Shown piece after piece: positions 1 to 13,012 of a stretch of DNA of 64,000 nt. The notes under the pieces were generated by a model. It had not been told where the DNA came from. It made no database searches and worked only from the letters and a program-made list of their open reading frames with translations. The translations under genes were made by a program, and so were the position numbers. Location: positions 326-64,325 of the forward strand of contig WJJM01000055.1 of assembly GCA_014729675.1 (NCBI GenBank). Direction: 5' to 3'. Positions within the stretch are counted from its first letter, which is position 1, and the number at the start of each line of letters is the position of its first letter. The stretch is from Candidatus Woesearchaeota archaeon (lineage in GTDB: Archaea; Nanobdellota; Nanobdellia; Woesearchaeales; WJKL01).

Positions 1-98
1 TTCTCATCCTCAACTGCTGTCTCAGTCATGCGCTAATCTCCTTAAAAAATAGGTCAGTAAACGAAAGCTATATAAGTTTTGGATGTTTCCAGAAAAGC

Positions 99-266
99 AT
101 GGCATATTTTTATGTTTGTCCTGAATGTGGAGAGTGGTATTTTCCTGATCAAGATAGGATATGTCCTAAATGTAAGGTCAGATTAATCCCGACCTGTCCT
201 TACTGTGGAGAAACTGAAAAGAATTGTTCTTGCAAAAAAGAGAAAAGGCGTATTGACAAATCTTAA
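99..266 (+). CDS. small zinc-ribbon protein (4x CxxC), 55 aa; below the 60-aa ORF-track cutoff
   Basis: ATG at 99, stop TAA 264-266. Translation MAYFYVCPECGEWYFPDQDRICPKCKVRLIPTCPYCGETEKNCSCKKEKRRIDKS has four Cys pairs. Confidence 0.4.
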   Translation: MAYFYVCPECGEWYFPDQDRICPKCKVRLIPTCPYCGETEKNCSCKKEKRRIDKS

Positions 267-532
267 AAATGATGTATGTTTAATTATAAGCCATTTCATT
301 TATTTCTAAGGGAGATGTCATGTATCAGCCCAATCAGATCCATAGGGTTTCACCAATCCATTTTTCTTCCAACGGAGTTCATGCTGATTATAACTCCGGA
401 GGTTTGAGCCAACATCACCACATTCCTTTCCAGGGGCAGACTACTCTTCCAGCATTCGGCATCGGCGGCAAGCCTTCATATCAGAATGATATGAAAATGT
501 ATGGTATGGGTGGTACGCTTCTGAATAAATGA

Positions 533-1015
533 TTAGGTGTTGAATAATTCAGGATTCTGGTTCCTGAAGCTGTAGAAGGACTCGCCTATAATGATGTGAT
601 CCTGGAATACGAGTTTGACAGCTTTGGCAGCTTCAGCGATCTCTTCTGTAATTTGAGTATCATTCCTCGAAGGGGAAGAGTTCATCGAAGGATGGTTATG
701 CGCTATGATGAATGAGACAGCGTTTGCTGTCAGCACTCTTCTCAATATTTCTGGGATATCGATGTTCGCGCATCCGTTTCCTCCAGCAAACAGTTCTACA
801 GCTGAAAGCAAAGTGTTCCCTGAATCAAGCAGAAGCAACACAAATATCTCTCTGTGGCTTTCTTTGAGCCATGACAGGCATTCTGCAGCTTCTGCCGCAG
901 AGCATACTATTTTACCTATGCCTTTTGCTCTCATCTGTTTTGTGATCTTTTTCTGTTTCCATTTCAGCTTGAGTTCACATACGTGATCCATCTTTGTCCC
1001 CGAAAAAACATTCAT
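533..1015 (-). CDS. radC: RadC-like JAB/MPN domain protein
   Basis: JAMM-like motif IIAHNHPSMNSSPSRNDTQIT (HxHPxG..S..D) at the C-terminus; size fits short RadC forms. Confidence 0.8.
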   Translation of the reverse strand: MNVFSGTKMDHVCELKLKWKQKKITKQMRAKGIGKIVCSAAEAAECLSWLKESHREIFVLLLLDSGNTLLSAVELFAGGNGCANIDIPEILRRVLTANAVSFIIAHNHPSMNSSPSRNDTQITEEIAEAAKAVKLVFQDHIIIGESFYSFRNQNPELFNT

Positions 1016-1213
1016 TGCAGTCAGAATCGAGATTATGCTGCTTGCATCTCTCGCATACAGGATTCTTGTCTATCCTGCTTAAGGCCGCCTCAAGAAAAGT
1101 GTTTGTTATAGCAGTTATAGGCTTATTCAATATTTGTTTGAGCCTGTACATGGCTCTTACATTCCTTTCGAATATCTGAGGAGAATACATATTGGCTCCT
1201 TTGTTAACTCTGG

Positions 1214-2293
1214 TTAACCTCTTAGGGGCATGAGCAGGGCTTTTCTGCCTGTCTGCTCGTCATCAAAGACAATAGGGGTTGCTTCATCAAAAAAGCGTAT
1301 CGTGTCAAAGCTCATGCTGATTATGTTTGAGAATATTCTTGAGTTCACCTTTAAAGAGATGCTAAAGCTTATGTTCTTGTCTTTCATCACAAAGAAAGCA
1401 TTGTCCTTGCCTTCAACTTTAACCTTGCCTTTGCTGAAGCTCAGCTTTATCGGATAATTTTTGTCATTCACAGGAAGGTCTTCGATGCTTTGCATAAGCA
1501 TCATTTGTGCATCTTCGATTATATCCCATGCAAGCCCATCTCCATTAGGAATGACCTTTGGATAGTCAGGATATGAGCCTAAGACTTCAGTTGAATATAT
1601 GATATTGTTGAATCTCAGATAGACTCTTTCTTCAGTCTTATTTTTATGATATGCTGCCTCAACAGGAGCCTGTGTTACAAGCTCTCTTGTCTTAAGGAAC
1701 TTTGTCAACGGAACAGCAGTCTTTTTCTTTGTGAAGCTTATTTCCATGTCAGCGATGTACATCATCTTGCCGTCTGTCGCGACAATCTTGTTATTCTTTC
1801 CGTCAAAACAGATTGTATTTTTGTTTATGGTTATATCTGAATATTCTTCTGCAAACTCTCCAGCCTGAAGCAGCAGTTCCGGAAAATAGTTATCGTCAAG
1901 ACTCTGCCAGTCCAGCTTTGCAGGAATATTTGGGATATCTTCAGGCGTGATCCTCTTCAGGCTTCTCTGCATCATGATATTATCAGAAGGCATATAGATA
2001 TTGATGTCCTCTTCATCAGACTCGAAATAAAAGATGTCCTGATTCTGCTTTGCCAATGTCTTCAATTCTTCAAGAGATATGCTGAAGCTCCCTTTTCCTT
2101 CTGAATTTTCAGGGAGGTCTTCATATATCTCGGCAAAGCAGCAGGTGTTCTTTGCAACTGCTTTTAATGATCCTTTTACGCTTTGGAAACTGATAAGCTT
2201 TTGATCATCCTTCATGCTCCTGTGTATGATCCTTGATGCAGCTTTTGAGATGTTTTTCAATGTGTCTTTGTGCGTTAATAGGCTCAGGTTCAT
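1214..2293 (-). CDS. DnaN-like sliding clamp (bacterial beta-clamp family), 359 aa
   Basis: Length matches DnaN (~366 aa). Motif KIVATDGKMMYIADM lies at the position of the DnaN LVATDGHRLA motif. The N-terminus is DnaN-like (MNLSLL...KNISKAASRIIHRSMKDDQKLISFQSVKGSLKAVAKN). The neighbour is RadC. Confidence 0.55.
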   Translation of the reverse strand: MNLSLLTHKDTLKNISKAASRIIHRSMKDDQKLISFQSVKGSLKAVAKNTCCFAEIYEDLPENSEGKGSFSISLEELKTLAKQNQDIFYFESDEEDINIYMPSDNIMMQRSLKRITPEDIPNIPAKLDWQSLDDNYFPELLLQAGEFAEEYSDITINKNTICFDGKNNKIVATDGKMMYIADMEISFTKKKTAVPLTKFLKTRELVTQAPVEAAYHKNKTEERVYLRFNNIIYSTEVLGSYPDYPKVIPNGDGLAWDIIEDAQMMLMQSIEDLPVNDKNYPIKLSFSKGKVKVEGKDNAFFVMKDKNISFSISLKVNSRIFSNIISMSFDTIRFFDEATPIVFDDEQTGRKALLMPLRG

Positions 2294-2474
2294 CCTGGAT
2301 TCCTTTCAGAAAAAGGTTGACAATTGTTTTGAGTTAATCACTTGTGCATTTATTTGAAATGTTTTATGAGATGGTGAATGCATACAGATTACAGGTCTTT
2401 CAAAAATAAGCTTGACATCGTTAATTTTGGGTGTAGATTATTCATAAAGACACTTTATTTTAGGAGGGTTTCTG

Positions 2475-2714
2475 ATGTCAAATACATGGAATAATCAGAA
2501 TCACTTTCTTCAGCAGAATCAGGCTAAGAAAGAAACATTTTATACTCATGATAGTTTGACTGGTCAGGATCTTCGGATTGTTAAATCAATACAATCCAAT
2601 CAGATTGATATGTTCATCTCTGATGCTGGAACAAATGGCAGGATTCATGATCACAGCGGAATAGATCTTGTCAATAAAAGAGCCTTCAATGTCAACCGAG
2701 GACAGCAGTTTTAA
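2475..2714 (+). CDS. hypothetical Q/N-rich small protein
   Basis: Strong SD-like taggaggg 7 nt upstream of the ATG; 79 aa; overlaps the 3' end of the convergent 2692-2991 gene. Confidence 0.35.
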   Translation: MSNTWNNQNHFLQQNQAKKETFYTHDSLTGQDLRIVKSIQSNQIDMFISDAGTNGRIHDHSGIDLVNKRAFNVNRGQQF

Positions 2715-2991
2715 GTAGCTTTTTAGCTATTGTCCTTGCGTCTTCTTCAGTTAAATCTGGATTGTCCAGTCTGGCACAACCTATTACCAGGCTGTTTATA
2801 TTTTCTCCCAGATCGAACTTCACAAAGGATTGTGCAATTTCAGCTCCTTCATCCTTGGTGGTTTTTCCATCGGATATATTAACAAGAACTTTCTTCAGAA
2901 GCGTTTTTAATTTATCAGCTTTTTCATCTGAAATATGATAGTCTGAGTTGATTTCATCGAAAAGATGCTCTGCTTGTTTTTTCAATTTCAT
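2692..2991 (-). CDS. hypothetical protein, possibly TerB-like (weak)
   Basis: 99 aa; segment VLVNISDGKTTKDEGAEIAQSF resembles the TerB ADG..E motif; last gene of the 3-gene minus-strand operon headed by the GGDEF-like gene. Confidence 0.4.
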   Translation of the reverse strand: MKLKKQAEHLFDEINSDYHISDEKADKLKTLLKKVLVNISDGKTTKDEGAEIAQSFVKFDLGENINSLVIGCARLDNPDLTEEDARTIAKKLLKTAVLG

Positions 2992-3042
2992 TTTGTAATG
3001 TAAAAAGAATCTGTATTCTCCGACCCTTATCTTTCCGGCATC

Positions 3043-3243
3043 TTATGCAAATTCGTCTCTCATAACATCATGGGAGATAAGCCTACTCTTTGATTTCTTT
3101 CTTGAATCCTCTATCTCGCTTAATACATCTTCAGAAACGATTGATTCGTCTTTGATAAGCGCTTTCAGGTCTTTCATCTCCTTTCTTAGGCCGATTAGGT
3201 CTTCATGTATCTGTTCAAGTGTGATTGCAGCCATGTGTTTCAC
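3043..3243 (-). CDS. small helical protein, 66 aa, unknown function
   Basis: Lies between the GGDEF-like gene and the TerB-like gene on the same strand with short spacers. Confidence 0.4.
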   Translation of the reverse strand: MKHMAAITLEQIHEDLIGLRKEMKDLKALIKDESIVSEDVLSEIEDSRKKSKSRLISHDVMRDEFA

Positions 3244-3290
3244 CTGTTATGTATATGTTCTGAGGGTATATAAAACTTGCTGTTTCAATC

Positions 3291-3821
3291 TTATGATGCT
3301 TTTATTACATCCTTCCTATGATCCGACTTTATTTTCAGCACCTTTTCAGCCAGCTTTGAAGCTTCTCTTTCTAAGTTTTCAGAAGTGTTCCATGTGCCCA
3401 GGGCATAAGTGAATGACAGTTCATTCTTTGTTGCTGCTCTCTTCAGTTTTTCAAGAACAGCTTCTGCATCCTGCTTTTTTGTTCCTGTCACACACAGGAT
3501 CTCGTCCCCTGAGAAGAACTTTCCTATAAAGCAGTCTGATTGCCTTGTTTCTATGGAAAACATGGCTCTGAGGCGATTATTCATGGCCTCATAGCCGTTC
3601 TGCTGGTTAAGGGCATGCAGATTGTCTATATCTATGAAGATGACATGCCTTTTGATACCTCTGGGCTGTTTCCTGGCAAAATTAAGCAGTCCTGACCTGT
3701 TCAATATGCCGTAATTCTCATCAAAACTGAGATTAAGCTCTAATTTTCTGATATCTCGTTCCAATTTCTGAATTTTCTGAGTAAACCCAAAGATTCTTCC
3801 TACTATTGTCGTGAGAGACAT
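3291..3821 (-). CDS. minimal stand-alone GGDEF-like (Palm-domain) nucleotide cyclase, 176 aa, signature SGDEI
   Basis: YGILNRSGLLNFARKQ matches D-x-LTGL-x-NRR. VIFIDIDNLHALNQQNGYEAMNNRLRAMF matches the DhFKxIND..GH..GD block. CFIGKFFSGDEILCV matches RyGGDEF with G-G-D-E-F replaced by S-G-D-E-I. No sensor or partner domain is present. Confidence 0.6.
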   Translation of the reverse strand: MSLTTIVGRIFGFTQKIQKLERDIRKLELNLSFDENYGILNRSGLLNFARKQPRGIKRHVIFIDIDNLHALNQQNGYEAMNNRLRAMFSIETRQSDCFIGKFFSGDEILCVTGTKKQDAEAVLEKLKRAATKNELSFTYALGTWNTSENLEREASKLAEKVLKIKSDHRKDVIKAS

Positions 3822-3894
3822 TCTTGCCTCCTTTCGAACAGAACAGATCGCTTTATGAGTGATTTTTTAAATAAAATCTATATTAAGCCAGATT

Positions 3895-4353
3895 ATGATG
3901 TATAATATAAATGGAGTTTCCATGATTATGACACGTAAGAATTCAGACCTTATTTTTTGCAGCGCTTCTACCAAGGAGAAGCTATATTACCTTGCTATGA
4001 TAGTGCTTAAGTTTAAAATATTGAACAACATATACGTAGCTGCATATATTGGTGGAGGAGCAAGATTGTGGGCGGAGGGATTGAGAACTCATTTCAATGA
4101 CATTGATGTTTGGCTCCCAGGATATCATACAAAGTCACGGTCTTACATTGATAATCAATTAGTTGATGGAGATCCCGATGCTGAAATCCCTCCAAGAATT
4201 CATAATTTTTGCAGGAGAACAGCAACAGAAATTTTTGCTGGTATATATGCCTCTTCCATAGAGCATTTGCTCAATATTAAACTTTTTCTTAATAGAGATA
4301 AGGATCAGAAAGATATATACTTACTCAAGAAATACCTCCAAGAAAGGTCTTAG
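3895..4353 (+). CDS. minimal nucleotidyltransferase (pol-beta fold, MNT-like)
   Basis: YIGGGARLWAEGLRTHFNDIDVW fits hG[GS]x9-13 D[IV]D; 152 aa; divergent from the GGDEF-like operon. Confidence 0.4.
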   Translation: MMYNINGVSMIMTRKNSDLIFCSASTKEKLYYLAMIVLKFKILNNIYVAAYIGGGARLWAEGLRTHFNDIDVWLPGYHTKSRSYIDNQLVDGDPDAEIPPRIHNFCRRTATEIFAGIYASSIEHLLNIKLFLNRDKDQKDIYLLKKYLQERS

Positions 4354-4380
4354 ATATTCACGATTTTTAGGTATGACAAT

Positions 4381-5343
4381 ATGATCAAGGGAATTCTTGT
4401 AGAAGGGGTTGATTGTTCTGGAAAGACAACATTGGTGACAAGACTAAAGACAGATCTCAGTTCATATGGCTGGGATTCTCAGACCTGTTGTCATCGATCA
4501 GAGGATCAATTCGATAGATACCTTCAGATTTATTGCAACTCAGATCGTATCATATTCGACAGAGGTCATTTTAGTGAGATAGTATATGGAGATTTATGGA
4601 GAAAATCTCGCCACTTTCAGCAATGGGAAATTGAATGGCTAAATGAATATGTGCTGATGCATTTCATAGTCATCTGGTGCTATGCCTCAGAAGAATGCCT
4701 GAAAAAACGTTATACCCAGCAAGGTATTAACAGGAAGATAAAGGTCGATCAACTAATTCATATACAGACAGCATTTGAGAATTTATTCCAGCACAATTCA
4801 GTAATCAAATATTGTTCGGATTCTTTCGTCTCGCTAGACAAATTAGTTGATATGATATATTATCTAATCCACCAAGACAATGAAGGGATTAACGAACATG
4901 ACATTATTCCACCATTAGCCAAAGAAGCGTATTGGGGAATTATCGTCCACAGCAATATTTCTTATTTTGAAAAACTAATTGTTGAAGAAATCAAAGTACA
5001 TTTTCCTGATATATCAATTAAGATGCTTTCTAACAAAATAACAGTTGATAGTTTTCTTAAGGAATACTCTTCGACGAAAAGAACAGTATTCATTGGATGC
5101 CTCCCTCATCTTGCCTCCAATGCAAGAACTCTTAATTCTCAAGATGCCACTTTACTTCTAAATGACCTAATAAGACATAAATTTCTATGGATAATCGATG
5201 AGACAAGTAAATGTTCAGAAAATTACCTTAAATTTTATCAAGAGTTGCCATTACATAATAAAATATCTGTCTCTTCAGACAAACCAAATTCAATAAAAAA
5301 TGTAAGAAACCAAATAGCTACGCGTATTAATAGCTTTATTTAA
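4381..5343 (+). CDS. P-loop dNMP/deoxynucleoside kinase-like protein with a ~170-aa C-terminal extension
   Basis: N-terminal GILVEGVDCSGKTTL resembles the thymidylate kinase/dNK Walker A (vFEGiDGSGKTT); 320 aa; directly downstream of the MNT-like gene. Confidence 0.5.
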   Translation: MIKGILVEGVDCSGKTTLVTRLKTDLSSYGWDSQTCCHRSEDQFDRYLQIYCNSDRIIFDRGHFSEIVYGDLWRKSRHFQQWEIEWLNEYVLMHFIVIWCYASEECLKKRYTQQGINRKIKVDQLIHIQTAFENLFQHNSVIKYCSDSFVSLDKLVDMIYYLIHQDNEGINEHDIIPPLAKEAYWGIIVHSNISYFEKLIVEEIKVHFPDISIKMLSNKITVDSFLKEYSSTKRTVFIGCLPHLASNARTLNSQDATLLLNDLIRHKFLWIIDETSKCSENYLKFYQELPLHNKISVSSDKPNSIKNVRNQIATRINSFI

Positions 5344-5398
5344 TCATATAATCGGCTCTTGAACAAGTTCGTTTCTTTCTTTATGCTCATATTAGGTC

Positions 5399-6127
5399 TT
5401 ACGACAGTACTGCACTCTTTATATAAGTGACCTCTTTTTTCAACAAATCCACTTTTGCTGGGCAAGGAACGACACACTCTAAGACAAATGGAGCATATGT
5501 ATTTTTAGACAATTGTGATATATTCCGAAGGTGTAATAAATCGTGTTGAAACAAAAAACCATGATCCGTCATATCTCTTCCCAGAAAAGATATGTGAATT
5601 TCTGAGAGCATATCACGATAATTTCTCAAATAATCTGGTACGCTCATTGACGAGACCGTTAAGGCATGAGCATAGTCGAATGTTAATCTCAAAGAAGGAT
5701 AATTGTCGACAACATTTCTAATTTTATCGATTGTCTCCCAAGGACCTTTCCAGTCATCATTTTCTAATGATGGAGAAATGTCTGGATCTATTATTGATCT
5801 AAGATTATTGATTGTATTTCTGTGAAAAACAACATTCTTTGCTTTTATCAACAAATATAATTCAATAATCTTATCCATTATTTGTTTTGTCTTTCTATTC
5901 CGTTTGTAAGTTATATCCTTCCATGGCGCATGTATCGAATTAAAATTCAATTTTTGAAGATACCTAACATTAGATTTCGATATTTTAAAATCAAGAAGGT
6001 ATTTTGAATATGCAAAAGACATCTCTATACCTTGCGGATTATATCGTTTAATTAATTTAATCATTTTATTTCGATCATCTGTGATTTGATATAGGACTCC
6101 GGTTGATATGCAAATAGGGTTTTTCAT
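5399..6127 (-). CDS. hypothetical protein, possibly a TIM-barrel (xylose-isomerase-like) fold
   Basis: 242-aa ORF with no strong motif; fold guess is weak. Confidence 0.4.
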   Translation of the reverse strand: MKNPICISTGVLYQITDDRNKMIKLIKRYNPQGIEMSFAYSKYLLDFKISKSNVRYLQKLNFNSIHAPWKDITYKRNRKTKQIMDKIIELYLLIKAKNVVFHRNTINNLRSIIDPDISPSLENDDWKGPWETIDKIRNVVDNYPSLRLTFDYAHALTVSSMSVPDYLRNYRDMLSEIHISFLGRDMTDHGFLFQHDLLHLRNISQLSKNTYAPFVLECVVPCPAKVDLLKKEVTYIKSAVLS

Positions 6128-6259
6128 ATAACTGGTAACTATGGTGCAATTTAACTAATTTTCTATTAAAATAGGCATTCACTGCTCCTTTCGCTTTAAA
6201 ATAAAAAAAGGAGCCTGCAAAGGCTCCTTGGTTGAAGATAGGCGGGAGAAACTGCTGTC

Positions 6260-6415
6260 TTATTCTATACTGTTATTGTCTTCATCCTTTATTATGTAGA
6301 TGTTCTCCGGCTGTAATGCTTCGCAGTGCTCTTTTACCTCTTGAGCTTCTGTTAGGTCATCAAATGTTTCTTCCTGCTCAGTCTCAACAGGAATGAATGA
6401 GAGAAGTTTGTACAT
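6260..6415 (-). CDS. tiny acidic protein (51 aa), paralog A
   Basis: MYKLLSFIPVETEQEETFDDLTEAQEVKEHCEALQPENIYIIKDEDNNSIE. Clear paralog of the protein encoded at 7475-7645; the shared block PVE..E..FE...EA.E.KEH.E.L.PENIYII.DED is conserved. Confidence 0.5.
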   Translation of the reverse strand: MYKLLSFIPVETEQEETFDDLTEAQEVKEHCEALQPENIYIIKDEDNNSIE

Positions 6416-6489
6416 GCATGCCTCCTTTCGTAATTACATTATCCGAATAATTGATATAATTGATGTAATGATTATGTTGGGAGATTATT

Positions 6490-7209
6490 ATGATCGAGAT
6501 TGTTCTTTATTTCGCGATATGGAAAATGATCTATGATTCGATGTTTTTGTTTGAAGTATATGCAATACATGGAAGCATCGACAGATACCAAACTCAGTAT
6601 AAAAATGAACTTGGTATTGATAAGAACTCTTTCCCACTGCCAATAAAAAAGATATTGTCGCGCTTTCTGGGATCGATAGTCTTTATTATTTTGGCTAGGG
6701 TCTTAACAATCAGCGTAAAGCAAAAAAATATCTACTCATTGCTGATTGCAGTTTCTTATGTAATGTCTGCTTTCGGTGCTGCGCTTATTACTAATAAGAA
6801 TGAAAGATCTTTGGGCATTATTGATTTCAGTTGGTATTCCATGATGGCAATTGCCTGTGGAGGCCTTATATTCTGCCAGTATCTTCCTGATTATCTCAAT
6901 GTCAATATTCCAGCAGACTTCTCAAAGGTCTATTATATTGCTTATCATAATGAGACTCAGAATCTTTTGCAAAAAACGGTTGACGCGATGTTGATTGTCG
7001 GTTCAGTCCTGGCTGTCTGCATGACAATAATATGGGGGAAAGATATTTGGAGACCAAAAGATGCAGTGGAAAGGCTTCAATATGTAAAAACAGCCTGCAT
7101 GTCAATGAGGATGGTCATAGCATATTTTTCTATATGCCTTGCTGTCTTTTATTGGCTTGGCCTTCCCTTGTACAATAAGATGGTTGTGTTAAGGGAATTT
7201 ATTAAATGA
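6490..7209 (+). CDS. polytopic membrane protein, unknown function
   Basis: 239 aa with multiple hydrophobic segments. Confidence 0.55.
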   Translation: MIEIVLYFAIWKMIYDSMFLFEVYAIHGSIDRYQTQYKNELGIDKNSFPLPIKKILSRFLGSIVFIILARVLTISVKQKNIYSLLIAVSYVMSAFGAALITNKNERSLGIIDFSWYSMMAIACGGLIFCQYLPDYLNVNIPADFSKVYYIAYHNETQNLLQKTVDAMLIVGSVLAVCMTIIWGKDIWRPKDAVERLQYVKTACMSMRMVIAYFSICLAVFYWLGLPLYNKMVVLREFIK

Positions 7210-7443
7210 TTACTTTTCATATTTCAAGATAGCTTCCAATTCAAGAAAATACTTTGAAAGCTCTTCTTTGTTTTTCTCCCATTGCTTAAAACAGTCAGTA
7301 GCTCTTCGGCCAACTCTTGAATCCATGTCAACCTCTCCTATTTCATAGATCTTTTTTGCAATTATTTCCTGGCCTTTTACAAGATGGAGGAGTATCTGAA
7401 GCATGGCTTGTTTTTCTTTTGCCTGTAGTTTGTTATCATCCAT
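7210..7443 (-). CDS. hypothetical 77-aa protein
   Basis: Immediately downstream, on the same strand, of paralog B of the tiny acidic protein. Confidence 0.4.
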   Translation of the reverse strand: MDDNKLQAKEKQAMLQILLHLVKGQEIIAKKIYEIGEVDMDSRVGRRATDCFKQWEKNKEELSKYFLELEAILKYEK

Positions 7444-7474
7444 ATTATCACCTTTCTAAAATTATGATGAAGGG

Positions 7475-7645
7475 TTATAAATAATTTTCTCTTTTACTCA
7501 GGCTGTCTTCATCCATTATTATGTAAATGTTTTCTGGATGTAATGTTTCAAGATGCTCTTTTTCTTCCTCTGCTTCCTGTATCTCCTCAAATGCTTCAGG
7601 ATTCTCAGGTTCAACAGGCATATATGGAATGATTCTGTATGGCAT
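7475..7645 (-). CDS. tiny acidic protein (56 aa), paralog B
   Basis: MPYRIIPYMPVEPENPEAFEEIQEAEEEKEHLETLHPENIYIIMDEDSLSKRENYL. Nucleotide similarity to 6260-6415 is visible. Confidence 0.5.
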   Translation of the reverse strand: MPYRIIPYMPVEPENPEAFEEIQEAEEEKEHLETLHPENIYIIMDEDSLSKRENYL

Positions 7646-7720
7646 TGATCGCTCCTTTCTATTTTAAATAAGTGAGAATTTCGCTGGCGTGGGTTTATCT
7701 ACCGAAAACGCCTGTTTGTG

Positions 7721-7895
7721 TTGAATTCAGGCAGTACACAGCCGGAATCGGCTGAATTTACTTTATCGAATCAACGATAAAGATGCTGTCTCAAATCAAT
7801 GAAACAGTTTTCAAAACATCTGCCAAATCAATGGCATTTTTGCATTGCTTTAATCAAAAAGCAGCTTTGGTTTTGAAACGATTTGTTGAAATCTA
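7721..7895. repeat. 175-bp direct repeat, copy 1 (left boundary of the candidate integrated element)
   Basis: About 95% identical to 12839-13012; the two copies start with ttgaattc[a/g]ggcagtacac and end with gatttgttgaaatcta. Confidence 0.9.
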
Positions 7896-8024
7896 TTCAA
7901 TATATGGGTGGAAAGAAGTTATAAAGATTATGGGGCATGGGTGGTGAAAGATAATGACTCATGTTCATCTAAACTTGATTTTTGACAAAATCATGTTATA
8001 ATTATTATCAAAACAAATAATCGA

Positions 8025-8627
8025 GTGTTTTATAAAGAGGTATTTCCTTCTCTGCATATGTCAGAGAGACATAATAAAGGAGTTAGAAGGCTTATGGGTG
8101 CAGCCTTTCTTGCTATACTGTCGCTTCCATTTATGGATATTCCCTTTAACTACTGCAAATTTCTTTATAACAATAATAAAGTCAGAAAAAACGACAATAA
8201 TATATCATATACTGAAGGTATCGATAAGTGGGGTTTAAAGGGCTACAAGATATTCAGGCGTGACAGCAAAAAAACAAAAGTGCAGCATTTTGAATATGAT
8301 TCATTTTTAACACCAAAAGTAGTGTATTCTGCAACAGACTGCGATAACGATGGTTTAGTGGACATTGTTGATTCTGGCAGTACTGTTCCTTATTTTAGAA
8401 GTAATTTAAATGAACGCAAAGAATATCGCAATAAATTATTAAAGATGTCAATCTTTGGGACACTAAGCAAAAACAAATATAAGAGGGAATTTGGTAAGAT
8501 CTGCCATGATGTCGCTACAGATCCTAATAGGACAAGATATATATCTGAGCTCGAAGAAATATTCAAGAAAGCTGATAATGAGCTTGAACATTTTAATAAG
8601 ATGACTTCATATTCTGATAATAACTGA
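8025..8627 (+). CDS. hypothetical protein with a DxDxDG Ca-binding-like motif
   Basis: DCDNDGLVDIVDSG motif; the true start may be an internal Met (MSERHNK or MGAAFLAIL). Confidence 0.45.
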   Translation: MFYKEVFPSLHMSERHNKGVRRLMGAAFLAILSLPFMDIPFNYCKFLYNNNKVRKNDNNISYTEGIDKWGLKGYKIFRRDSKKTKVQHFEYDSFLTPKVVYSATDCDNDGLVDIVDSGSTVPYFRSNLNERKEYRNKLLKMSIFGTLSKNKYKREFGKICHDVATDPNRTRYISELEEIFKKADNELEHFNKMTSYSDNN

Positions 8628-8659
8628 TGTTATCATTCTTCTTATAGAAAAGGAACACT

Positions 8660-9925
8660 ATGAGTAAATCTATTTTTGGTATTATCTTCCCAGGTATCTT
8701 GCTAATTTTGACTGTTTTGGTTGTTGGAGGTACAATAACAAATATGTCAATCTTTGAGCAAAGAAAAAAGATAACATGCGACCAAATTAGATTACTGATA
8801 TTGAATGTTGCTAAGAACAGATCAGGAGCATATTTTAAGATGTTGGTAGACTTACACGACAATCTTAAAGAAGAAAAAGAAAAGTTGCCAGATGAATATA
8901 AATCACTCTTGGCGGATGCAAAAAAGAATATTGAAGAATATAAGAAATATGATAAAGAAAATAAATATGCTGCCGCTAAACTTTATCGACTTCTTATAGA
9001 TCAGATTGGGCTTTTTAAAGAACGATATCATCGTCTTGGTATTTATTTAGCTGACAAAGCAAAATTAATCGAGAATGAATCAAACTGTCTTGACATAATA
9101 AATAAATCTTTGAAAAATGGTGTCTGGCCATTTGATGAAGATGGTAATATAGAGAGTTCGTTTACAGAGACACCTGAATGGATAAAAAGTATCATTAGAA
9201 AACAGACAAAAAAGTTCAATCCAAATAGCAGTTTGAAAGATGTGTTAAACAAGGAAAATAAAGAATGTAACCAATTTAATTATATGACTGGATTTGGGTG
9301 CATAACTTCTTATTTATATGCACTTGGCAAGGTTAATTTAATATTAGTTTATTACTTATTATGCAGCTTATATGGGGCGATAATTCTCGTTACCTTGGAG
9401 AACAAGAAACCCTTTATTGGGCGGATCCTATTGTATGCAATATCTGGAGGGGCTTGTATGCTATTTTATATAAAAAGCATTCAAGTATTTATTGTAGATA
9501 TGCAGGATAGCACAGGCATAGAATTAGTTTTCACACATCATTTATTGGGGTTACTTGCGTTTATCATAGTGTTGGCCAATCCATTTCAGATAATGAGGTT
9601 TAGATTGAAGAATATAATTAGTGTTTTGACAAAGAATAAAACACTAATTATCCTGTTGGCTGCTTTTTTATTGATCTGCGGATGCAACAGCAATAGGAAA
9701 TCTATACAGGTAAAGAAAAAGAAATTTATTGGCATGAAATCAAAGGAAATAGTAGACGTTGTAGTTCCAGAAAAAGGAAATGAGGATTTAAGAGACAAAA
9801 GAGATCAGGAAATAAGTGAAGAAGAAAAAGCTCTTGATAAAAAGATCGATCAGAGACTTGATGAAGATATAAATAATGCTCCCGAATGGTTGAAACCGCT
9901 CGGAAAGAGTATAAAATCAAAATGA
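8660..9925 (+). CDS. membrane protein with an N-terminal TM, a coiled-coil region and a C-terminal multi-TM domain
   Basis: 421 aa with strong hydrophobic stretches; lysine/glutamate-rich tail. Confidence 0.55.
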   Translation: MSKSIFGIIFPGILLILTVLVVGGTITNMSIFEQRKKITCDQIRLLILNVAKNRSGAYFKMLVDLHDNLKEEKEKLPDEYKSLLADAKKNIEEYKKYDKENKYAAAKLYRLLIDQIGLFKERYHRLGIYLADKAKLIENESNCLDIINKSLKNGVWPFDEDGNIESSFTETPEWIKSIIRKQTKKFNPNSSLKDVLNKENKECNQFNYMTGFGCITSYLYALGKVNLILVYYLLCSLYGAIILVTLENKKPFIGRILLYAISGGACMLFYIKSIQVFIVDMQDSTGIELVFTHHLLGLLAFIIVLANPFQIMRFRLKNIISVLTKNKTLIILLAAFLLICGCNSNRKSIQVKKKKFIGMKSKEIVDVVVPEKGNEDLRDKRDQEISEEEKALDKKIDQRLDEDINNAPEWLKPLGKSIKSK

Positions 9926-9941
9926 CTCAGGGAACAAAAAA

Positions 9942-9965
9942 AGCCCAGAAGGTTAGTTCTGGGCT
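9942..9965 (-). terminator. hairpin followed by a T7 tract on the minus strand; intrinsic-terminator-like, probably terminating the 10022-10654 gene
   Basis: agcccagaa-ggttag-ttctgggct forms a 9-bp stem; a7 on the plus strand reads as U7 on the minus transcript. Confidence 0.45.
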
Positions 9966-9975
9966 TTCAAATGAA

Positions 9976-10029
9976 GAAACTTCTATTAGAAGGGAAACTT
10001 CTATTAGAAGGGAAACTTCTATTAGAAGG
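9976..10029. repeat. 3 x 18-bp perfect tandem repeat gaaacttctattagaagg, each unit containing the palindrome cttcta-t-tagaag
   Basis: Read directly. The last unit overlaps the stop codon of the minus-strand OMP-like gene. The array lies between convergent genes. Confidence 0.9.
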
Positions 10030-10654
10030 TGTAGCCTAATCCAAGAGAAAAATAGACATTGTTTAAAGGATTCCCGATATCAGAAGTCATCGAACTGTTT
10101 GTGGCATTTTCTGACAGTTCCAGTTCAGTACCTCCGGCAGAGATGCCGTATCCCAGCCTCAGGTCAAGATAGAAACTGCTTTTATCCAGTATGGCATAAC
10201 CTGCAAAGATATCGACTGATATGGGCTTGTGCTCTCCTGTAACTGTATAGCCGCTGTTTTTAACTTCTGCTTCTATGCTGGAGCCTGAGATTCCCATGCC
10301 GGCGAATGCCCCAACAGAGAAAACATAAGATCCCCAGACGCTCCAGCTTATTACGCTTGTATCTGCATCAACACCAAATGATTCTACCTCGTCTTCAGCA
10401 TCAGAAGCGATATCTTTCATAAGAAGGCTCCCGACACCGCCGCCGAAATATATCTTGGACTCGCTTTCCATCTCATAATACATCCCTCCTGAAAGGAGGT
10501 CTTGGAGCCTTGTATCATAGCCTCCTGACAGCCAGAAGCCGTATGTTCCTGCATTTGGGTTTTTCTTTTTTTCTTTCTCATCTCCGGAAAGAAGATTTGC
10601 TGAAAAGGTAAATGCAATTAATATCACCAACAGATATCTGCTAAAATTAATCAT
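10022..10654 (-). CDS. bacterial-type outer-membrane beta-barrel-like protein (OmpA/OmpW-like) with a signal peptide
   Basis: N-terminal hydrophobic signal; Gly-rich alternating pattern; C-terminal ...YFSLGLGYTF ending in an aromatic Phe, typical of bacterial OMP beta-barrels. Confidence 0.5.
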   Translation of the reverse strand: MINFSRYLLVILIAFTFSANLLSGDEKEKKKNPNAGTYGFWLSGGYDTRLQDLLSGGMYYEMESESKIYFGGGVGSLLMKDIASDAEDEVESFGVDADTSVISWSVWGSYVFSVGAFAGMGISGSSIEAEVKNSGYTVTGEHKPISVDIFAGYAILDKSSFYLDLRLGYGISAGGTELELSENATNSSMTSDIGNPLNNVYFSLGLGYTF

Positions 10655-10668
10655 AAAGATCCTTTCAA

Positions 10669-11562
10669 TTATTCTTTGGTTAAGGTTATTTCATTGCTGT
10701 AGAACCAGCCTGAATTTCCCATAGCATCACCTGCAAAAACAGCAATCCGTACTTTTTCCCAGGTGTAATAGGCCGATGAGTCTGAATCAAATTGCCGAGA
10801 ACCGGAAAGGGAACCGCTTGATGAAGTTAGGGTGTTGTACTCATTTGCAACAGAGCCCCACTGATCCAATCCATCATAGCGTGGATAATATTGCAGATAT
10901 ACAGAAGCTTCTCCCGGTGTATCTTCCAGAGTGTAGTTAAAGCTGTAACCCAGCTCAATAGAATAATCGCTGGAAGATACAGTTGTGTCAGTTCCTGAAG
11001 CAGAAAGATTAGTGATTGAGAATGACGCTCCTCCGCCACCTCCGCCACCGCTGAAGCTGGTTATATTAAATGATCGGGATTGTTCATGATCTGCTGTTGC
11101 CGGATTTGTATCAGTGGTCTGCAGCTGGAATGTTGAAGAAGTCCACACTCCTTCATCAGGCTTCCTTATCACTTCAAGATAATATGTGGCAGAAGCTTCG
11201 TATTCAATATTCCCAAATACGCATTCATAAGTAGAGGAAGATGTAAAACGTCCTTCATCATCTGATGAAGCAGTTCTGATTCTGTAAGATTTATATAAAT
11301 TTACTCTGTAATGGTAAGTATCTGTATTGTATGAACTGTCAACATTATTCAGCAAGACGGCAAGATCAACTTCAAAGCTTGAACTGCTGCCTGAAGTGCC
11401 GCCATCGGTGGTCCAGTCTGTGCTGACGCCCGGATCTGTAGAAGCAGTTCCAGTGTATCCGCCTGAGTCCTCATCTTCTCCGCATCCAAGAAAAAGCATT
11501 ACAGTACAGCATAACAGCAAGAGAAGGCTGAAATTTACGATATAAGATGTATTTTTCTGCAT
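10669..11562 (-). CDS. secreted lipoprotein-like Ser/Thr/Gly-rich protein
   Basis: Signal peptide followed by LFLGCGED (lipobox-like), a G8 stretch and S/T-rich sequence; upstream in the same operon as the OMP-like gene. Confidence 0.55.
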   Translation of the reverse strand: MQKNTSYIVNFSLLLLLCCTVMLFLGCGEDEDSGGYTGTASTDPGVSTDWTTDGGTSGSSSSFEVDLAVLLNNVDSSYNTDTYHYRVNLYKSYRIRTASSDDEGRFTSSSTYECVFGNIEYEASATYYLEVIRKPDEGVWTSSTFQLQTTDTNPATADHEQSRSFNITSFSGGGGGGGASFSITNLSASGTDTTVSSSDYSIELGYSFNYTLEDTPGEASVYLQYYPRYDGLDQWGSVANEYNTLTSSSGSLSGSRQFDSDSSAYYTWEKVRIAVFAGDAMGNSGWFYSNEITLTKE

Positions 11563-11679
11563 AACTGCTCTCCTAAAAAAATGAGTATTTTCGACAGAAT
11601 AATTTTGAGGGGTACATGCCGGTTCAGTTTGAACTAATCTTCCTCAATCACCTCCTTAAAATAAAAATCCTTTAACAAG

Positions 11680-12435
11680 TTATGTTTGGTATAATCTTTT
11701 CATTGCCTTCTCACCGTCCTTGCTCATGACCTTTGCGTATATTTCAGTTGTTGCGATGCTTGAATGCCCAAGCTGCTGCTGGACAAATCTCAGGTTCCAG
11801 CTGCTAGCCTTGAGCAGATGGGTCGCGAACGTGTGCCTCAGACAGTGTATGCTGTAATTTCTGTTTAGTTTCGCCCTGCTCATGCTTCTCTTGACTGACG
11901 CCTGCAATGCTCTTCTTGTCATGCTCTTTCCGGTCCTGTTGGAATAAAATACAGGAGCATCTTTTCTTAACGGTTCCCCGTTGTCCTGCTTCCAGCTTTT
12001 GAAAGCTTGCAGCGGCTCCTTCAGTTGGTCTCCGCAGATAACAGTCCTTGCCTTGGAAAACTTGCCTTTCCTTACATAGATCTGTATGCAGCTGTTCTTC
12101 TCAGAGATGTCCTGCCATACGAGATTCGTTATCTCCATCACCCTCAATCCGGAATTCAGGGCCAGCTCCACCAAGAACCAGTCATAAACTCGTGATCTGA
12201 GAAGCGAGTTGTCTTTCTTTCTCAGAAGGTTTCTCCTGAGCTTTTTTACCTCTTTGCTGTCCAGATATTTGTCCTGCTGAAGGGTCCACCTGAAGCCTTT
12301 TTTTGTTTTGCTCTGTTTGGGATTGATGCCTGAAACTGCTTCAGCCACCTTACTTCTGATAGATTCAGGAGTGGCTTCATTTCCAATAACAAAAACATTT
12401 ACAGATATCCTGTTTGAAGATTCTTGGTGCAGCAT
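11680..12435 (-). CDS. tyrosine recombinase / integrase (XerC/D-like, short form)
   Basis: C-terminal RHTFATHLL...LGHSSIATTEIYAKV matches the R..H-x-x-R...Y catalytic box. Confidence 0.85.
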   Translation of the reverse strand: MLHQESSNRISVNVFVIGNEATPESIRSKVAEAVSGINPKQSKTKKGFRWTLQQDKYLDSKEVKKLRRNLLRKKDNSLLRSRVYDWFLVELALNSGLRVMEITNLVWQDISEKNSCIQIYVRKGKFSKARTVICGDQLKEPLQAFKSWKQDNGEPLRKDAPVFYSNRTGKSMTRRALQASVKRSMSRAKLNRNYSIHCLRHTFATHLLKASSWNLRFVQQQLGHSSIATTEIYAKVMSKDGEKAMKRLYQT

Positions 12436-12838
12436 TTTTTACCGATTCTGAAACTGGTAGCGGACAGGATTTGCATATTTCATGAGTTATGTGTAATCAC
12501 CCACGCCATGCTGAATTAGCAATACAGCTCTTCATCCTCTTGTCAAAGAACAGATGGGAAATAGAATCATTCCCAACAAATCAGAAATTTGATTTGTGTT
12601 TCCATCTATCAAAAAATATTTATATCAAACCATCTATCCCTAAATATCTCTGAGATCAGAGGTTCAATCCTGCGAAATATATTTGCACATTTCTCATGAA
12701 ATGTGAAAAGGTTATGTAGTTATATTAATCTGTTTTGGGGATTTGTCAACTGTTTTTTATGATCACAAAGTATCATTTCAGGCAAAATAACAGAAATCTG
12801 TATGTTATGGGTGCTTCTATCCAAAATACCCTTCATTT

Positions 12839-13012
12839 TTGAATTCGGGCAGTACACGGCTGGAATCAGCCGAATTTGCTTTATCGAATCAACGATAAAG
12901 ATGCTGTCTCAAATCAATGAAACAGTTTTCAAAACATCTGCCAAATCAATGGCATTTTTGCATGGCTTTAATCAAAAAGCAGCTTTGTTTTGAAACGATT
13001 TGTTGAAATCTA
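12839..13012. repeat. 175-bp direct repeat, copy 2 (right boundary)
   Basis: See copy 1. The ORF-track call 12802-12993 lies inside this repeat and is probably not coding. Confidence 0.9.

What the first reader, a model, noticed from the sequence alone, without database searches (positions are those of the whole stretch)
2692..5343. Minimal stand-alone GGDEF-like cyclase (SGDEI) operon placed divergently from a nucleotidyltransferase plus dNMP-kinase-like pair: candidate nucleotide-signalling or defence module
The 176-aa protein is essentially a bare GGDEF/Palm domain. It has the conserved NR, DxD and RyGGDEF-equivalent blocks, but the signature is S-G-D-E-I and there is no sensor domain. It heads a 3-gene operon with a 66-aa helical protein and a 99-aa possibly TerB-like protein. 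On the other strand, sharing a ~70-bp promoter region, lie a minimal pol-beta-type nucleotidyltransferase and a 320-aa thymidylate/deoxynucleoside-kinase-like P-loop protein with an unknown C-terminal half. GGDEF domains are rare in archaea. Minimal Palm cyclases of the mCpol/GGDEF type with small partners are known as conflict-system components in bacteria. The combination here (cyclase + TerB-like + MNT + dNK-like) does not correspond to a described system. RadC and a DnaN-like clamp sit immediately upstream, reinforcing a mobile or defence-island context.
Basis: partly seen in the sequence, partly recalled or inferred. Interest (0 to 1): 0.7.

Follow-up and report, generated by a model that had tools for sequence, protein, structure and literature searches.

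The report
Stand-alone stalk-GGDEF cyclase in a Woesearchaeota genome
The 176-aa protein is a genuine minimal GGDEF-type nucleotide cyclase from a widespread but uncharacterised stand-alone clade, and the proposed five-gene signalling or defence module around it is not conserved anywhere else we could look.

Summary

It belongs to a large clade of about 170-aa stand-alone proteins (339 cluster representatives): a short N-terminal coiled-coil stalk plus GGDEF. The clade has a near-invariant S-G-D-E signature and keeps the metal Asp, the base-contacting Asn, the RxxD site and the phosphate Lys.

Clade members occur on bacterial chromosomes, in temperate-phage-like and viral contigs, and on a few archaeon-labelled contigs. 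In 49 such loci no homologue of the 66-aa, 99-aa, 152-aa or 320-aa neighbours occurs. Homologues of the 320-aa kinase sit in a different cassette (DCD-kinase-DCD).

So the cyclase call is right and the "module" is not supported. The TerB call fails. The NTase call has only motif and transitive support. The kinase's "unknown C-terminal half" is a decayed second kinase domain.

Verdict: new member of a known kind, modest interest.

The parts
3291..3821 (-). 176-aa stand-alone stalk-GGDEF protein (NCBI GF336_05640, annotated there as 157 aa). The 176-aa start is preferred because the N-terminal GRIFGF motif and the heptad helix are conserved in homologues, and an AGGAGG Shine-Dalgarno sequence sits 5 nt upstream.
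3729..3815 (-). N-terminal helix (residues 3-31) with a/d heptad I17-L20-I24-L27-L31. Predicted to be a coiled-coil dimerisation stalk leading directly into the GGDEF domain.
   Evidence: helices 3-11 and 13-31, pLDDT 82-95; sequence; top Foldseek hit is the GCN4 zipper-WspR GGDEF fusion 3i5c; also SiaD and DgcB coiled-coil-GGDEF
3498..3545 (-). RQSD-CFIGKFF-SGDEI: an RxxD (I-site-like) motif followed by the active-site signature S104-G105-D106-E107-I108.
   Evidence: family conservation (S 212/226, G 224, D 225, E 224; R93 186; D96 160 D plus 34 E)
3043..3243 (-). 66-aa ORF (63 aa from the ATG at 3234), helical and charged, 47 nt downstream of the cyclase gene. It has its own TTTATATA box about 30 nt upstream of the ATG. 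No significant family and alone in its 90%-identity cluster.
2692..2991 (-). 99-aa ORF, 51 nt downstream of the 66-aa ORF. No TerB or other significant profile hit, and alone in its 90%-identity cluster.
3822..3894 (.). 73-bp AT-rich divergent intergenic region with TATA-like runs and the Shine-Dalgarno sequence of the cyclase gene.
3895..4353 (+). 152-aa protein with a pol-beta-type hGGx13DhDh motif (IGGGARLWAEGLRTHFNDIDVW) and a C-terminal LNRDKDxxDI motif. Probably a DUF6036-like minimal nucleotidyltransferase.
   Evidence: phrog_12854 E 5e-6; 34% identity over 101 aa to RSL2 gp094; gp094 vs PF19502 DUF6036, E 0.0018, below cut-off
4381..5343 (+). 320-aa P-loop kinase. The N-terminal dNMP/dNK-like kinase domain is intact (residues 1-165: EGVDCSGKTT, DRGHFSE). 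The C-terminal half is a decayed copy of the same domain, with the P-loop and DRGHFSE lost.
   Evidence: phrog_761 thymidylate kinase E 3.6e-15; SPbeta YorR E 7.7e-5
1214..2293 (-). 359-aa bacterial/phage-type beta-clamp-like protein (neighbour, not shown to be functionally linked).
533..1015 (-). 160-aa RadC-like JAB protein (neighbour).

Best explanation
The 176-aa gene encodes a self-sufficient, minimal GGDEF nucleotide cyclase. A roughly 30-residue N-terminal heptad helix would hold two chains together as a parallel coiled coil. This is the role the stalk plays in WspR, SiaD and DgcB, and the role of the GCN4 zipper in the constitutively active WspR fusion. Each GGDEF domain would bind one purine NTP-Mg2+ using D64, D106/E107, N72 and K165. 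The two half-sites would condense the NTPs into a 3',3'-cyclic dinucleotide. The conserved RxxD (R93-D96) would give product feedback inhibition. With no sensor domain, output would be set mainly by expression level.

The most likely product is c-di-GMP. However, the residue that reads the Watson-Crick face of the base (PleD D344, GacA S348) is Asn81 here, so relaxed or altered purine specificity is possible.

The protein belongs to a large clade (S-G-D-E-[I/F/L], about 170 aa) that travels alone. Clade members are found on bacterial chromosomes, in the early or accessory regions of temperate-phage-like elements, and on viral contigs. In this Woesearchaeota contig the gene sits in an ORFan-rich accessory stretch together with other genes of mobile-element type: a beta-clamp-like protein, RadC, a phage-type dNMP kinase and a DUF6036-like NTase. 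It is best read as horizontally acquired cargo, not as the head of a conserved five-gene system.

Shown here: the fold, family membership, residue conservation and the lack of conserved partners. Inferred: dimerisation, catalysis, product identity and feedback inhibition. Unknown: any biological role in the archaeon.

For: Sequence: a family profile against the PDB gives 41 hits, all GGDEF, best E 1.6e-11. TIGR00254 scores E 5.5e-6.

Family: 339 representatives at E<=1e-3, almost all 150-190 aa. Among 226 aligned members, D64 is kept in 223, N72 in 223, S104 in 212, G105 in 224, D106 in 225, E107 in 224 and K165 in 174 of 177 non-gap positions; R93 is kept in 186 and position 96 is D or E in 194. 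This pattern indicates selection on an active site.

The heptad stalk is conserved. A natural SGDEF enzyme, ECA3270, is an active diguanylate cyclase (PMC3974145).

Stand-alone nature: there is no conserved partner in the phage-like or viral loci, and no homologue of the window's neighbours in any of 49 loci. Phage GGDEF proteins of similar size exist, for example Bacillus phage SP-15 (183 aa) and Bordetella phage CN1 (152 aa). One of the nearest relatives with context, L015, sits next to an ECF sigma factor, which marks that contig as bacterial.
Against: The single sequence is below the Pfam and TIGRFAM curated cut-offs. The signature departs from GG[D/E]EF at two positions. The PleD K332 equivalent is His and the D344 equivalent is Asn, so activity and product are unproven. 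The RxGGDEF Arg is Lys here.

No c-di-GMP receptor or phosphodiesterase is known for DPANN archaea, and the genome was not searched for one. The nearest relatives (45-57% identity) are on contigs of 0.7-2.5 kb, so neighbourhood conservation among close relatives is only weakly sampled. No boundary of a mobile element enclosing the gene was found, and GC content does not differ from the rest of the contig (0.373 vs 0.381).
Confidence: 0.6

Rival explanations
1. The cyclase, the 66-aa and 99-aa proteins, the NTase and the kinase form one nucleotide-signalling or anti-virus module, in which a cyclase signal activates or is processed by the neighbouring proteins.
For: Tight spacing (47 and 51 nt between the three minus-strand genes, 27 nt between the NTase and the kinase) and a shared 73-bp divergent region. 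The neighbouring 242-aa protein hits a PADLOC candidate-defence model, PDC-M70B, at E 1.8e-14. The surrounding genes are of mobile-element type.
Against: No co-occurrence of any of the four partners with cyclase homologues in 49 loci, or with kinase homologues in 6 loci. The cyclase, the 99-aa protein and the NTase have no PADLOC hit at E<=1; the 66-aa protein and the kinase have only weak hits (E 0.015 and 0.0025). The kinase family has its own, different conserved cassette, DCD-kinase-DCD. The 66-aa ORF has its own TATA-like box. The 66-aa, 99-aa and 152-aa proteins are alone in their 90%-identity clusters. TerB similarity is absent.
Confidence: 0.1
2. The protein is a catalytically dead or re-purposed GGDEF domain. 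It could be a nucleotide-binding receptor or scaffold, or an NTPase like the degenerate GGDEF domain of YybT, rather than a cyclase.
For: The signature SGDEI is non-canonical. His replaces the PleD K332 equivalent, Asn replaces D344 and Lys replaces R366. About a quarter of GGDEF proteins are degenerate, and some have other activities (PMC3974145).
Against: The metal and catalytic carboxylates (D64, D106, E107), N72 and K165 are nearly invariant across 226 divergent members. Degenerate receptor-type GGDEFs normally lose these residues. An SGDEF enzyme is an active cyclase.
Confidence: 0.15
3. It has the same fold and mechanism, but the Asn81 sub-clade makes a product other than c-di-GMP (3',3'-cGAMP, c-di-AMP or a mixed purine dinucleotide), by analogy with Hypr GGDEFs.
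For: The Watson-Crick-face residue decides specificity: Asp gives GTP only, Ser accepts A or G (PMC6456294). The clade splits 157 Asn to 69 Asp at this position. Asp predominates in the loci on bacterial MAG contigs with conserved synteny, and Asn occurs in the window and in phage-like loci. The third signature residue is always Asp, never Glu (225/226), as the Goldilocks model in that paper requires for non-Asp specificity residues.
Against: No Asn variant has been characterised as far as I found. Close relatives switch between N and D (P0021 has D; P0002 and P0022 have N), which suggests the two may be functionally equivalent. Asn could still pair with guanine.
Confidence: 0.2

Closest known systems
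Coiled-coil (stalk)-GGDEF diguanylate cyclases: the WspR stalk and the GCN4-WspR fusion (3i5c), SiaD (7e6g), Caulobacter DgcB (6ttr), SadC (4wxo)
   Different: Those proteins carry receiver, transmembrane or partner-binding modules that regulate the stalk; this one is only stalk plus domain. The signature is SGDEI rather than GG[D/E]EF, and there are His, Asn and Lys substitutions at the PleD K332, D344 and R366 positions. Sequence identity is 13-21%.
Pectobacterium atrosepticum ECA3270, an active diguanylate cyclase with an SGDEF motif
   Same: Ser replaces the first Gly of the signature and is compatible with c-di-GMP synthesis (PMC3974145).
   Different: ECA3270 was not compared here. The point taken from the paper concerns the motif only. 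In this clade the Ser is a family-wide feature (212/226).
Hypr GGDEF enzymes (Geobacter GacA, Bdellovibrio Bd0367)
   Same: GGDEF enzymes in which a non-Asp residue at the Watson-Crick-face position changes nucleotide choice and co-occurs obligatorily with Asp at signature position 3 (PMC6456294).
   Different: Hypr enzymes have Ser where this protein has Asn. They also carry receiver domains, and their signature cross-dimer residue was not examined here.
Phage-encoded small GGDEF proteins (Bacillus phage SP-15 'diguanylate cyclase' 183 aa, Bacillus phage G gp350, Bordetella phage CN1 GGDEF protein 152 aa)
   Same: Small GGDEF proteins carried by viruses. Foldseek E 1e-4 to 8e-9 against the predicted viral structures.
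   Different: Only 17-21% identity. tblastn of the window protein against 50,697 phage records finds nothing. To my knowledge their functions are also untested.
mCpol / Cas10 Palm minimal cyclases of conflict systems
   Same: Distantly related Palm/cyclase fold. Small size and occasional mobile-element context.

Membership tests
GGDEF domain (PF00990 / TIGR00254 diguanylate cyclase) | GGDEF alpha/beta fold (beta-alpha-alpha-beta-beta-alpha-beta core) | tested here: met
GGDEF domain (PF00990 / TIGR00254 diguanylate cyclase) | Score above the curated profile cut-off | tested here: not met
   Pfam 16.6 bits against a gathering score of 23.8 (E 0.007). TIGR00254 26.2 bits against 37.4 (E 5.5e-6). 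The family profile does reach solved GGDEFs at E 1.6e-11, and some clade members carry a precomputed PF00990 hit. It is therefore a divergent member, not a non-member.
GGDEF domain (PF00990 / TIGR00254 diguanylate cyclase) | GG[D/E]EF active-site signature | tested here: not met
   The sequence is S-G-D-E-I. The catalytic D-E pair and the second Gly are kept, while the first Gly is Ser and Phe is Ile. The Ser variant is family-wide (212/226) and is known to be compatible with activity in ECA3270.
GGDEF domain (PF00990 / TIGR00254 diguanylate cyclase) | Metal-binding Asp (PleD D327), base-binding Asn (N335) and phosphate Lys (K442) | tested here: met
   D64, N72 and K165 are present and nearly invariant in the clade. 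The mapping to PleD numbering rests on my knowledge of that enzyme plus the HMMER alignments.
GGDEF domain (PF00990 / TIGR00254 diguanylate cyclase) | Guanine-specifying Asp (PleD D344 / GacA position 348) | tested here: not met
   It is Asn81 in the window protein. The clade has 157 Asn and 69 Asp at this position.
GGDEF domain (PF00990 / TIGR00254 diguanylate cyclase) | RxxD inhibitory site five residues before the signature region | tested here: met
   R93-Q-S-D96. In the clade R is kept in 186/226 and D or E in 194/226.
GGDEF domain (PF00990 / TIGR00254 diguanylate cyclase) | Synthesis of c-di-GMP from two GTP by a dimer | not testable with these tools
   Needs an enzyme assay and determination of the oligomeric state. 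The heptad stalk only predicts a dimer.
mCpol / Cas10-Palm conflict-system cyclases | Closer in profile or fold to Cas10/mCpol than to GGDEF | tested here: not met
mCpol / Cas10-Palm conflict-system cyclases | Conserved linkage to a sensor/effector partner (CARF, SAVED, transmembrane effector) | tested here: not met
   There is no conserved neighbour in phage-like or viral loci. In Latescibacterota and Gemmatimonadota MAG loci the conserved neighbours are sugar-activation genes.
Known anti-phage defence systems (PADLOC-DB v2) | Any component matching a defence model | tested here: not met
   The cyclase, the 99-aa protein and the 152-aa protein have no hit at E<=1. The 66-aa protein and the kinase have only weak hits: PDC-M14B E 0.015, and VakA E 0.0025 to the P-loop only. 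Only the adjacent 242-aa ORF, which is outside the proposed module, hits candidate PDC-M70B.
Pol-beta-superfamily minimal nucleotidyltransferase (DUF6036, PF19502) for the 152-aa protein | hG[GS]x9-13Dh[DE]h motif and a significant profile match | tested here: inconclusive
   The motif IGGG-x13-DIDVW is present by inspection. There is no direct Pfam, NCBIfam or PDB hit. Support is transitive: 34% identity over 101 aa to RSL2 gp094, which hits DUF6036 at E 0.0018, below the cut-off.
Thymidylate/deoxynucleoside(-monophosphate) kinase for the 320-aa protein | P-loop kinase domain matching dNMP-kinase profiles | tested here: met
   phrog_761 thymidylate kinase at E 3.6e-15 over residues 3-164. SPbeta YorR (2axp) at E 7.7e-5 over residues 5-162. 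Pfam and TIGR hits match the P-loop only and fall below cut-off. Substrate is unknown.
TerB for the 99-aa protein | Match to the TerB profile | tested here: not met
   No TerB hit at E<=1 in Pfam. Only chance-level hits were returned.

The most novel reading that the evidence does not exclude
The Asn81/S-G-D-E clade is a mobile, sensor-less cyclase that viruses and other mobile elements of both bacteria and archaea use to flood the host with a cyclic purine dinucleotide, possibly not c-di-GMP. In this Woesearchaeota genome it would then be the first handle on cyclic-dinucleotide signalling, or on virus-driven host manipulation or exclusion, in a DPANN archaeon, possibly acting together with the adjacent ORFan proteins.
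Probability: 0.12. Interest if true: 0.6.

Novelty: new member of a known kind. Interest (0 to 1): 0.3.

Why it matters
If the enzyme is active, it would show that a DPANN archaeon carries a working cyclic-dinucleotide synthase. GGDEF signalling is essentially unstudied in archaea. It would also define a compact, constitutively dimeric GGDEF clade of about 170 aa, which would be useful as a minimal model or tool enzyme. Its natural Asn/Asp variation at the specificity position could extend the rules learned from Hypr GGDEFs. As it stands, the finding is a well-supported annotation of a hypothetical protein, together with a negative result on the proposed module.

Tried and rejected
- megablast of window 1-12000 against phage records found nothing.
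- tblastn of the cyclase against phages found nothing. Against plasmids it found only three ordinary multidomain GGDEF genes at about 30% identity.
- The search for related loci with alignments A1 and A2 failed because no stretch was conserved enough. With the single protein it found nothing in genome or metagenome contigs. It worked only with a motif-restricted sub-alignment, A3, so the 33 genome and 7 viral loci are biased towards the RWYSGDE subgroup.
- The 152-aa protein had no PDB hit, no plasmid hit, no close relative on viral contigs, and only E about 0.01 tblastn hits in jumbo phages.
- A single-sequence AF2 model was poor (pLDDT 60.6) and was replaced.
- The afdb50 library was unavailable.
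- The top hits P0023 and P0024 are repeat artefacts (GTWNSSES repeats) and were excluded.
- I first took the tyrosine integrase at 11680-12435 as evidence that the cyclase lies in an integrated element. I rejected this because the integrase belongs to a separate segment of about 5 kb, bracketed by direct repeats, that does not include the cyclase.
- The bacterial-type promoter and terminator scan was uninformative for an archaeal contig.
Full report
SOURCE AND OBSERVATION

The window is a contig of a Candidatus Woesearchaeota MAG (NCBI locus tags GF336_056xx). Archaeal housekeeping genes further along the contig confirm this: Topo VI B, RLI/ABCE1, ScpB, LeuRS and GyrA.

- 99 aa at 2692-2991(-)
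- 66 aa at 3043-3243(-); NCBI starts it at the ATG at 3234, giving 63 aa
- 176 aa at 3291-3821(-)
- 152 aa at 3895-4353(+)
- 320 aa at 4381-5343(+)

The two divergent gene sets are separated by a 73-bp AT-rich spacer. An AGGAGG sequence lies 5 nt before the cyclase ATG. RadC (Pfam E 3.8e-30) and a beta-clamp-like protein (phrog_947 E 6e-14; TIGR00663 E 1.7e-4) lie next door on the minus strand.

IS THE 176-aa PROTEIN A GGDEF/PALM CYCLASE?

On its own the sequence is sub-threshold:
- Pfam PF00990: 16.6 bits against 23.8, E 0.007
- TIGR00254: 26.2 bits against 37.4, E 5.5e-6
- best PDB hit 5euh: E 0.015

An exhaustive phmmer search of 1.84 billion cluster representatives found 339 relatives at E<=1e-3 (48 at E<=1e-10). 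Nearly all are 150-190 aa long. Two high-scoring giant hits are repeat artefacts.

A profile built from 60 of these relatives (A1) hits 41 distinct solved sequences. All are GGDEF proteins, and the best E-value is 1.6e-11 (SadC).

With A1 as the alignment, AlphaFold2 gives pLDDT 94.6 and pTM 0.86. The single-sequence model had given only 60.6.

Foldseek against the PDB returns only GGDEF proteins in its top 50. The list is led by the GCN4-zipper-WspR fusion, SiaD, the PadC phytochrome cyclase, SadC, PleD and DgcB.

There is no PADLOC hit and no Pfam hit to an mCpol or Cas10 family at E<=1.

ANATOMY OF THE PROTEIN AND ITS CLADE

Residues 3-31 form a helix with a clean a/d heptad: I17, L20, I24, L27, L31. 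The helix runs straight into the GGDEF domain. This is the 'stalk' arrangement that dimerises WspR, SiaD and DgcB, and the best structural matches align across it. The protein is therefore not quite a 'bare' domain.

Across 226 aligned clade members, the following positions are conserved:
- D64: 223/226 (PleD D327 equivalent by alignment and my knowledge of PleD)
- N72: 223/226 (N335 equivalent)
- S104: 212
- G105: 224
- D106: 225
- E107: 224
- K165: 174 of 177 non-gap (K442 equivalent)
- R93: 186, with D or E at position 96 in 194 (the RxxD I-site motif)

Clade-specific departures from canonical GGDEF are:
- Ser for the first Gly of the signature
- Ile/Phe/Leu at signature position 5
- His at the K332 position (166 His, 21 Lys)
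- Asn or Asp at the guanine-specifying D344 position (157 N, 69 D); the window protein has Asn81
- Arg or Gln at position 101, where the window protein has Lys

This pattern looks like an active site under selection, not a decayed receptor domain.

Published work shows that a natural SGDEF enzyme is an active cyclase (PMC3974145). It also shows that the D344-equivalent residue sets base choice, with Asp giving GTP only and Ser accepting A or G, and that non-Asp variants require Asp rather than Glu at signature position 3 (PMC6456294). The clade obeys this rule: 225 of 226 members have Asp there.

WHERE THE CLADE LIVES

A profile search of the 5.8-billion-sequence set returned 90 further members. 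Some are annotated 'GGDEF domain-containing protein' or 'diguanylate cyclase', in cyanobacteria among others. Many sit on contigs of 35-46 kb.

Contexts examined:
- L007-L011 are temperate-phage-like: serine recombinase, HTH repressor, a run of small ORFs including the cyclase, tyrosine integrase, Dam methylase and primase.
- L012 is a 372-kb contig. The gene lies among a giant helicase, methylases and ParG.
- A motif-restricted scan gave 33 genome loci (Latescibacterota, Gemmatimonadota, Planctomycetota, Spirochaetota, Chloroflexia, cyanobacteria and one 'uncultured archaeon') and 7 IMG/VR viral loci.
- In Latescibacterota and Gemmatimonadota the gene sits in conserved synteny: a sugar nucleotidyltransferase, a GHMP/galactokinase-like kinase, the cyclase, then a lipoprotein-like ORF or a GlcNAc-2-epimerase-like gene.
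- In viral and phage-like loci it lies among unrelated small ORFs with no recurring partner.
- One viral contig (L049, 112 kb) and the 'archaeon' contig (L039) carry it just downstream of a eukaryote-type topoisomerase IB.
- The window protein's nearest relatives (P0002 57%, P0021 52%, P0022 46% identity) are on contigs of 0.7-2.5 kb. One has 25% GC. Another sits beside an ECF sigma factor, which marks it as bacterial.

THE FIVE-GENE MODULE

BLASTP of the 66-aa, 99-aa, 152-aa, 320-aa, RadC and clamp-like proteins against all ORFs of 49 cyclase-bearing loci found no hit at E<0.01. The 6 kinase-bearing loci contain no cyclase homologue. This includes the immediate flanks of the nearest relatives.

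The 66-aa, 99-aa and 152-aa proteins are each alone in their 90%-identity clusters. The 66-aa and 99-aa proteins have no significant family hit.

The 66-aa ORF has its own TTTATATA box about 30 nt upstream of its ATG. Co-transcription with the cyclase is therefore not a given.

The caveat is that close relatives are poorly sampled.

THE NEIGHBOURS THEMSELVES

The 320-aa protein:
- Its N-terminal domain is a phage-type dNMP/dNK-like kinase (phrog_761 E 3.6e-15; SPbeta YorR E 7.7e-5).
- Its homologues of about 360 aa are tandem duplications, with two P-loops and two DRGHFSE motifs.
- In the window protein the second copy has lost both motifs. The 'unknown C-terminal half' is therefore a decayed kinase domain.
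- In all five independent contexts examined (six loci) those homologues sit between two DCD (dCTP deaminase/dUTPase-like) genes. These are often accompanied by a methyltransferase, a dCMP deaminase, a ThyA-like gene or an ABC transporter. None of that is present in the window.

The 152-aa protein:
- It has the pol-beta NTase motif by inspection.
- It is 34% identical over 101 aa to Ralstonia phage RSL2 gp094, which weakly hits DUF6036 'nucleotidyltransferase' at E 0.0018.
- It has no direct profile or PDB hit, so the NTase call is plausible but unproven.

The 99-aa protein shows no TerB similarity.

IS THE REGION A MOBILE ELEMENT?

The genes have a mobile-element flavour: a beta-clamp-like protein in an archaeon, RadC, a phage-type kinase and PHROG-only families.

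I found no boundary, however. The contig ends at the left, and GC content matches the rest of the contig (0.373 against 0.381).

The tyrosine integrase at 11680-12435 belongs to a different segment of about 5.1 kb. That segment is bracketed by 250-nt direct repeats (7690-7937 and 12808-13054) and does not include the cyclase.

MECHANISM AND VERDICT

Best-supported model (confidence about 0.6 overall). The protein is a sensor-less, coiled-coil-dimerised GGDEF cyclase that makes a 3',3'-cyclic purine dinucleotide. c-di-GMP is the most likely product, with Asn81 leaving specificity open. RxxD-mediated product inhibition is expected. The gene was acquired horizontally and acts without dedicated neighbours.

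Fold, family membership, residue conservation and the absence of conserved partners are shown here. Dimerisation, catalysis, product and feedback inhibition are inferred. Any role in the archaeon is unknown.

GGDEF hits in DPANN and Asgard MAGs have already been remarked on in the literature (PMC8646023). Small GGDEF proteins are annotated in phages. This is therefore a new, divergent member of a known kind rather than a new system.

Noticed in passing
window 7690-7937 and 12808-13054 (bracketing 7938-12807): A direct repeat of about 250 nt (89% and 79% identity over two adjoining blocks) flanks a segment of about 5.1 kb. The segment holds a tyrosine integrase (11680-12435, minus strand; Pfam E 2.3e-32), two ORFans (10669-11562 and 10022-10654, minus strand) and two ORFs at 8025-8627 and 8660-9925 (plus strand) without a family hit; the larger looks membrane-rich by eye. 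It looks like a small integrated plasmid- or virus-like element with att duplication. The cyclase lies outside it.
   Followed up: partly
window 9976-10029: Three perfect tandem copies of the 18-mer GAAACTTCTATTAGAAGG lie between convergent genes inside the 5.1-kb element. They look like iterons or a binding-site array (D4).
   Followed up: no
window 6260-6415(-) and 7475-7645(-): Two paralogous small acidic ORFs (51 and 56 aa; about 72% nucleotide identity over 136 nt) share the motif PENIYII-DED. They have no family hit (D2). The 19-nt region ending just inside the start codon of the first ORF (CGAAAGGAGGCA...) closely matches that of the cyclase gene (D10).
   Followed up: no
window 5399-6127(-): A 242-aa ORF with no Pfam hit matches the PADLOC candidate-defence model PDC-M70B (E 1.8e-14, covering 5-221 of 238). 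It abuts the kinase gene tail to tail.
   Followed up: no
loci L001-L006 (homologues of the 320-aa kinase): Tandem-duplicated dNMP-kinase-like proteins of about 360 aa are flanked on both sides by DCD (dCTP deaminase/dUTPase-like) genes in all five independent contexts examined (six loci). They are often accompanied by a SAM methyltransferase, a dCMP deaminase, a ThyA-like gene, a radical SAM gene or an ABC exporter. This is a conserved nucleotide-modification or nucleotide-depletion cassette that I could not name.
   Followed up: partly
L049:1785-3503 and L039:202-1020: A eukaryote-type DNA topoisomerase IB (Pfam E 4e-63) lies just upstream of an S-G-D-E GGDEF gene. This occurs on a 112-kb IMG/VR viral contig and on a 2.1-kb contig labelled 'uncultured archaeon'. 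It could be a virus of Nitrososphaeria-type archaea; that lineage guess is from my own knowledge and was not tested.
   Followed up: partly
L016-L047 (Latescibacterota and Gemmatimonadota loci): The small S-G-D-E GGDEF gene is syntenic with a sugar-1-phosphate nucleotidyltransferase, a GHMP/galactokinase-like kinase and a GlcNAc-2-epimerase-like gene. All of these members have Asp at the guanine-specifying position, whereas phage-like loci and the window have Asn.
   Followed up: partly
L034, L041, L043: In three bacterial loci the S-G-D-E gene is immediately followed by, or overlaps, a second GGDEF gene with a canonical GGEEF/GGDEL signature. These are tandem paralogues.
   Followed up: no
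window 1214-2293(-): A bacterial/phage-type DNA polymerase beta-clamp-like gene sits in an archaeal (PCNA-using) genome, next to RadC and a 71-aa Cys-rich ORF (975-1190). This suggests a foreign replication-associated cassette.
   Followed up: no
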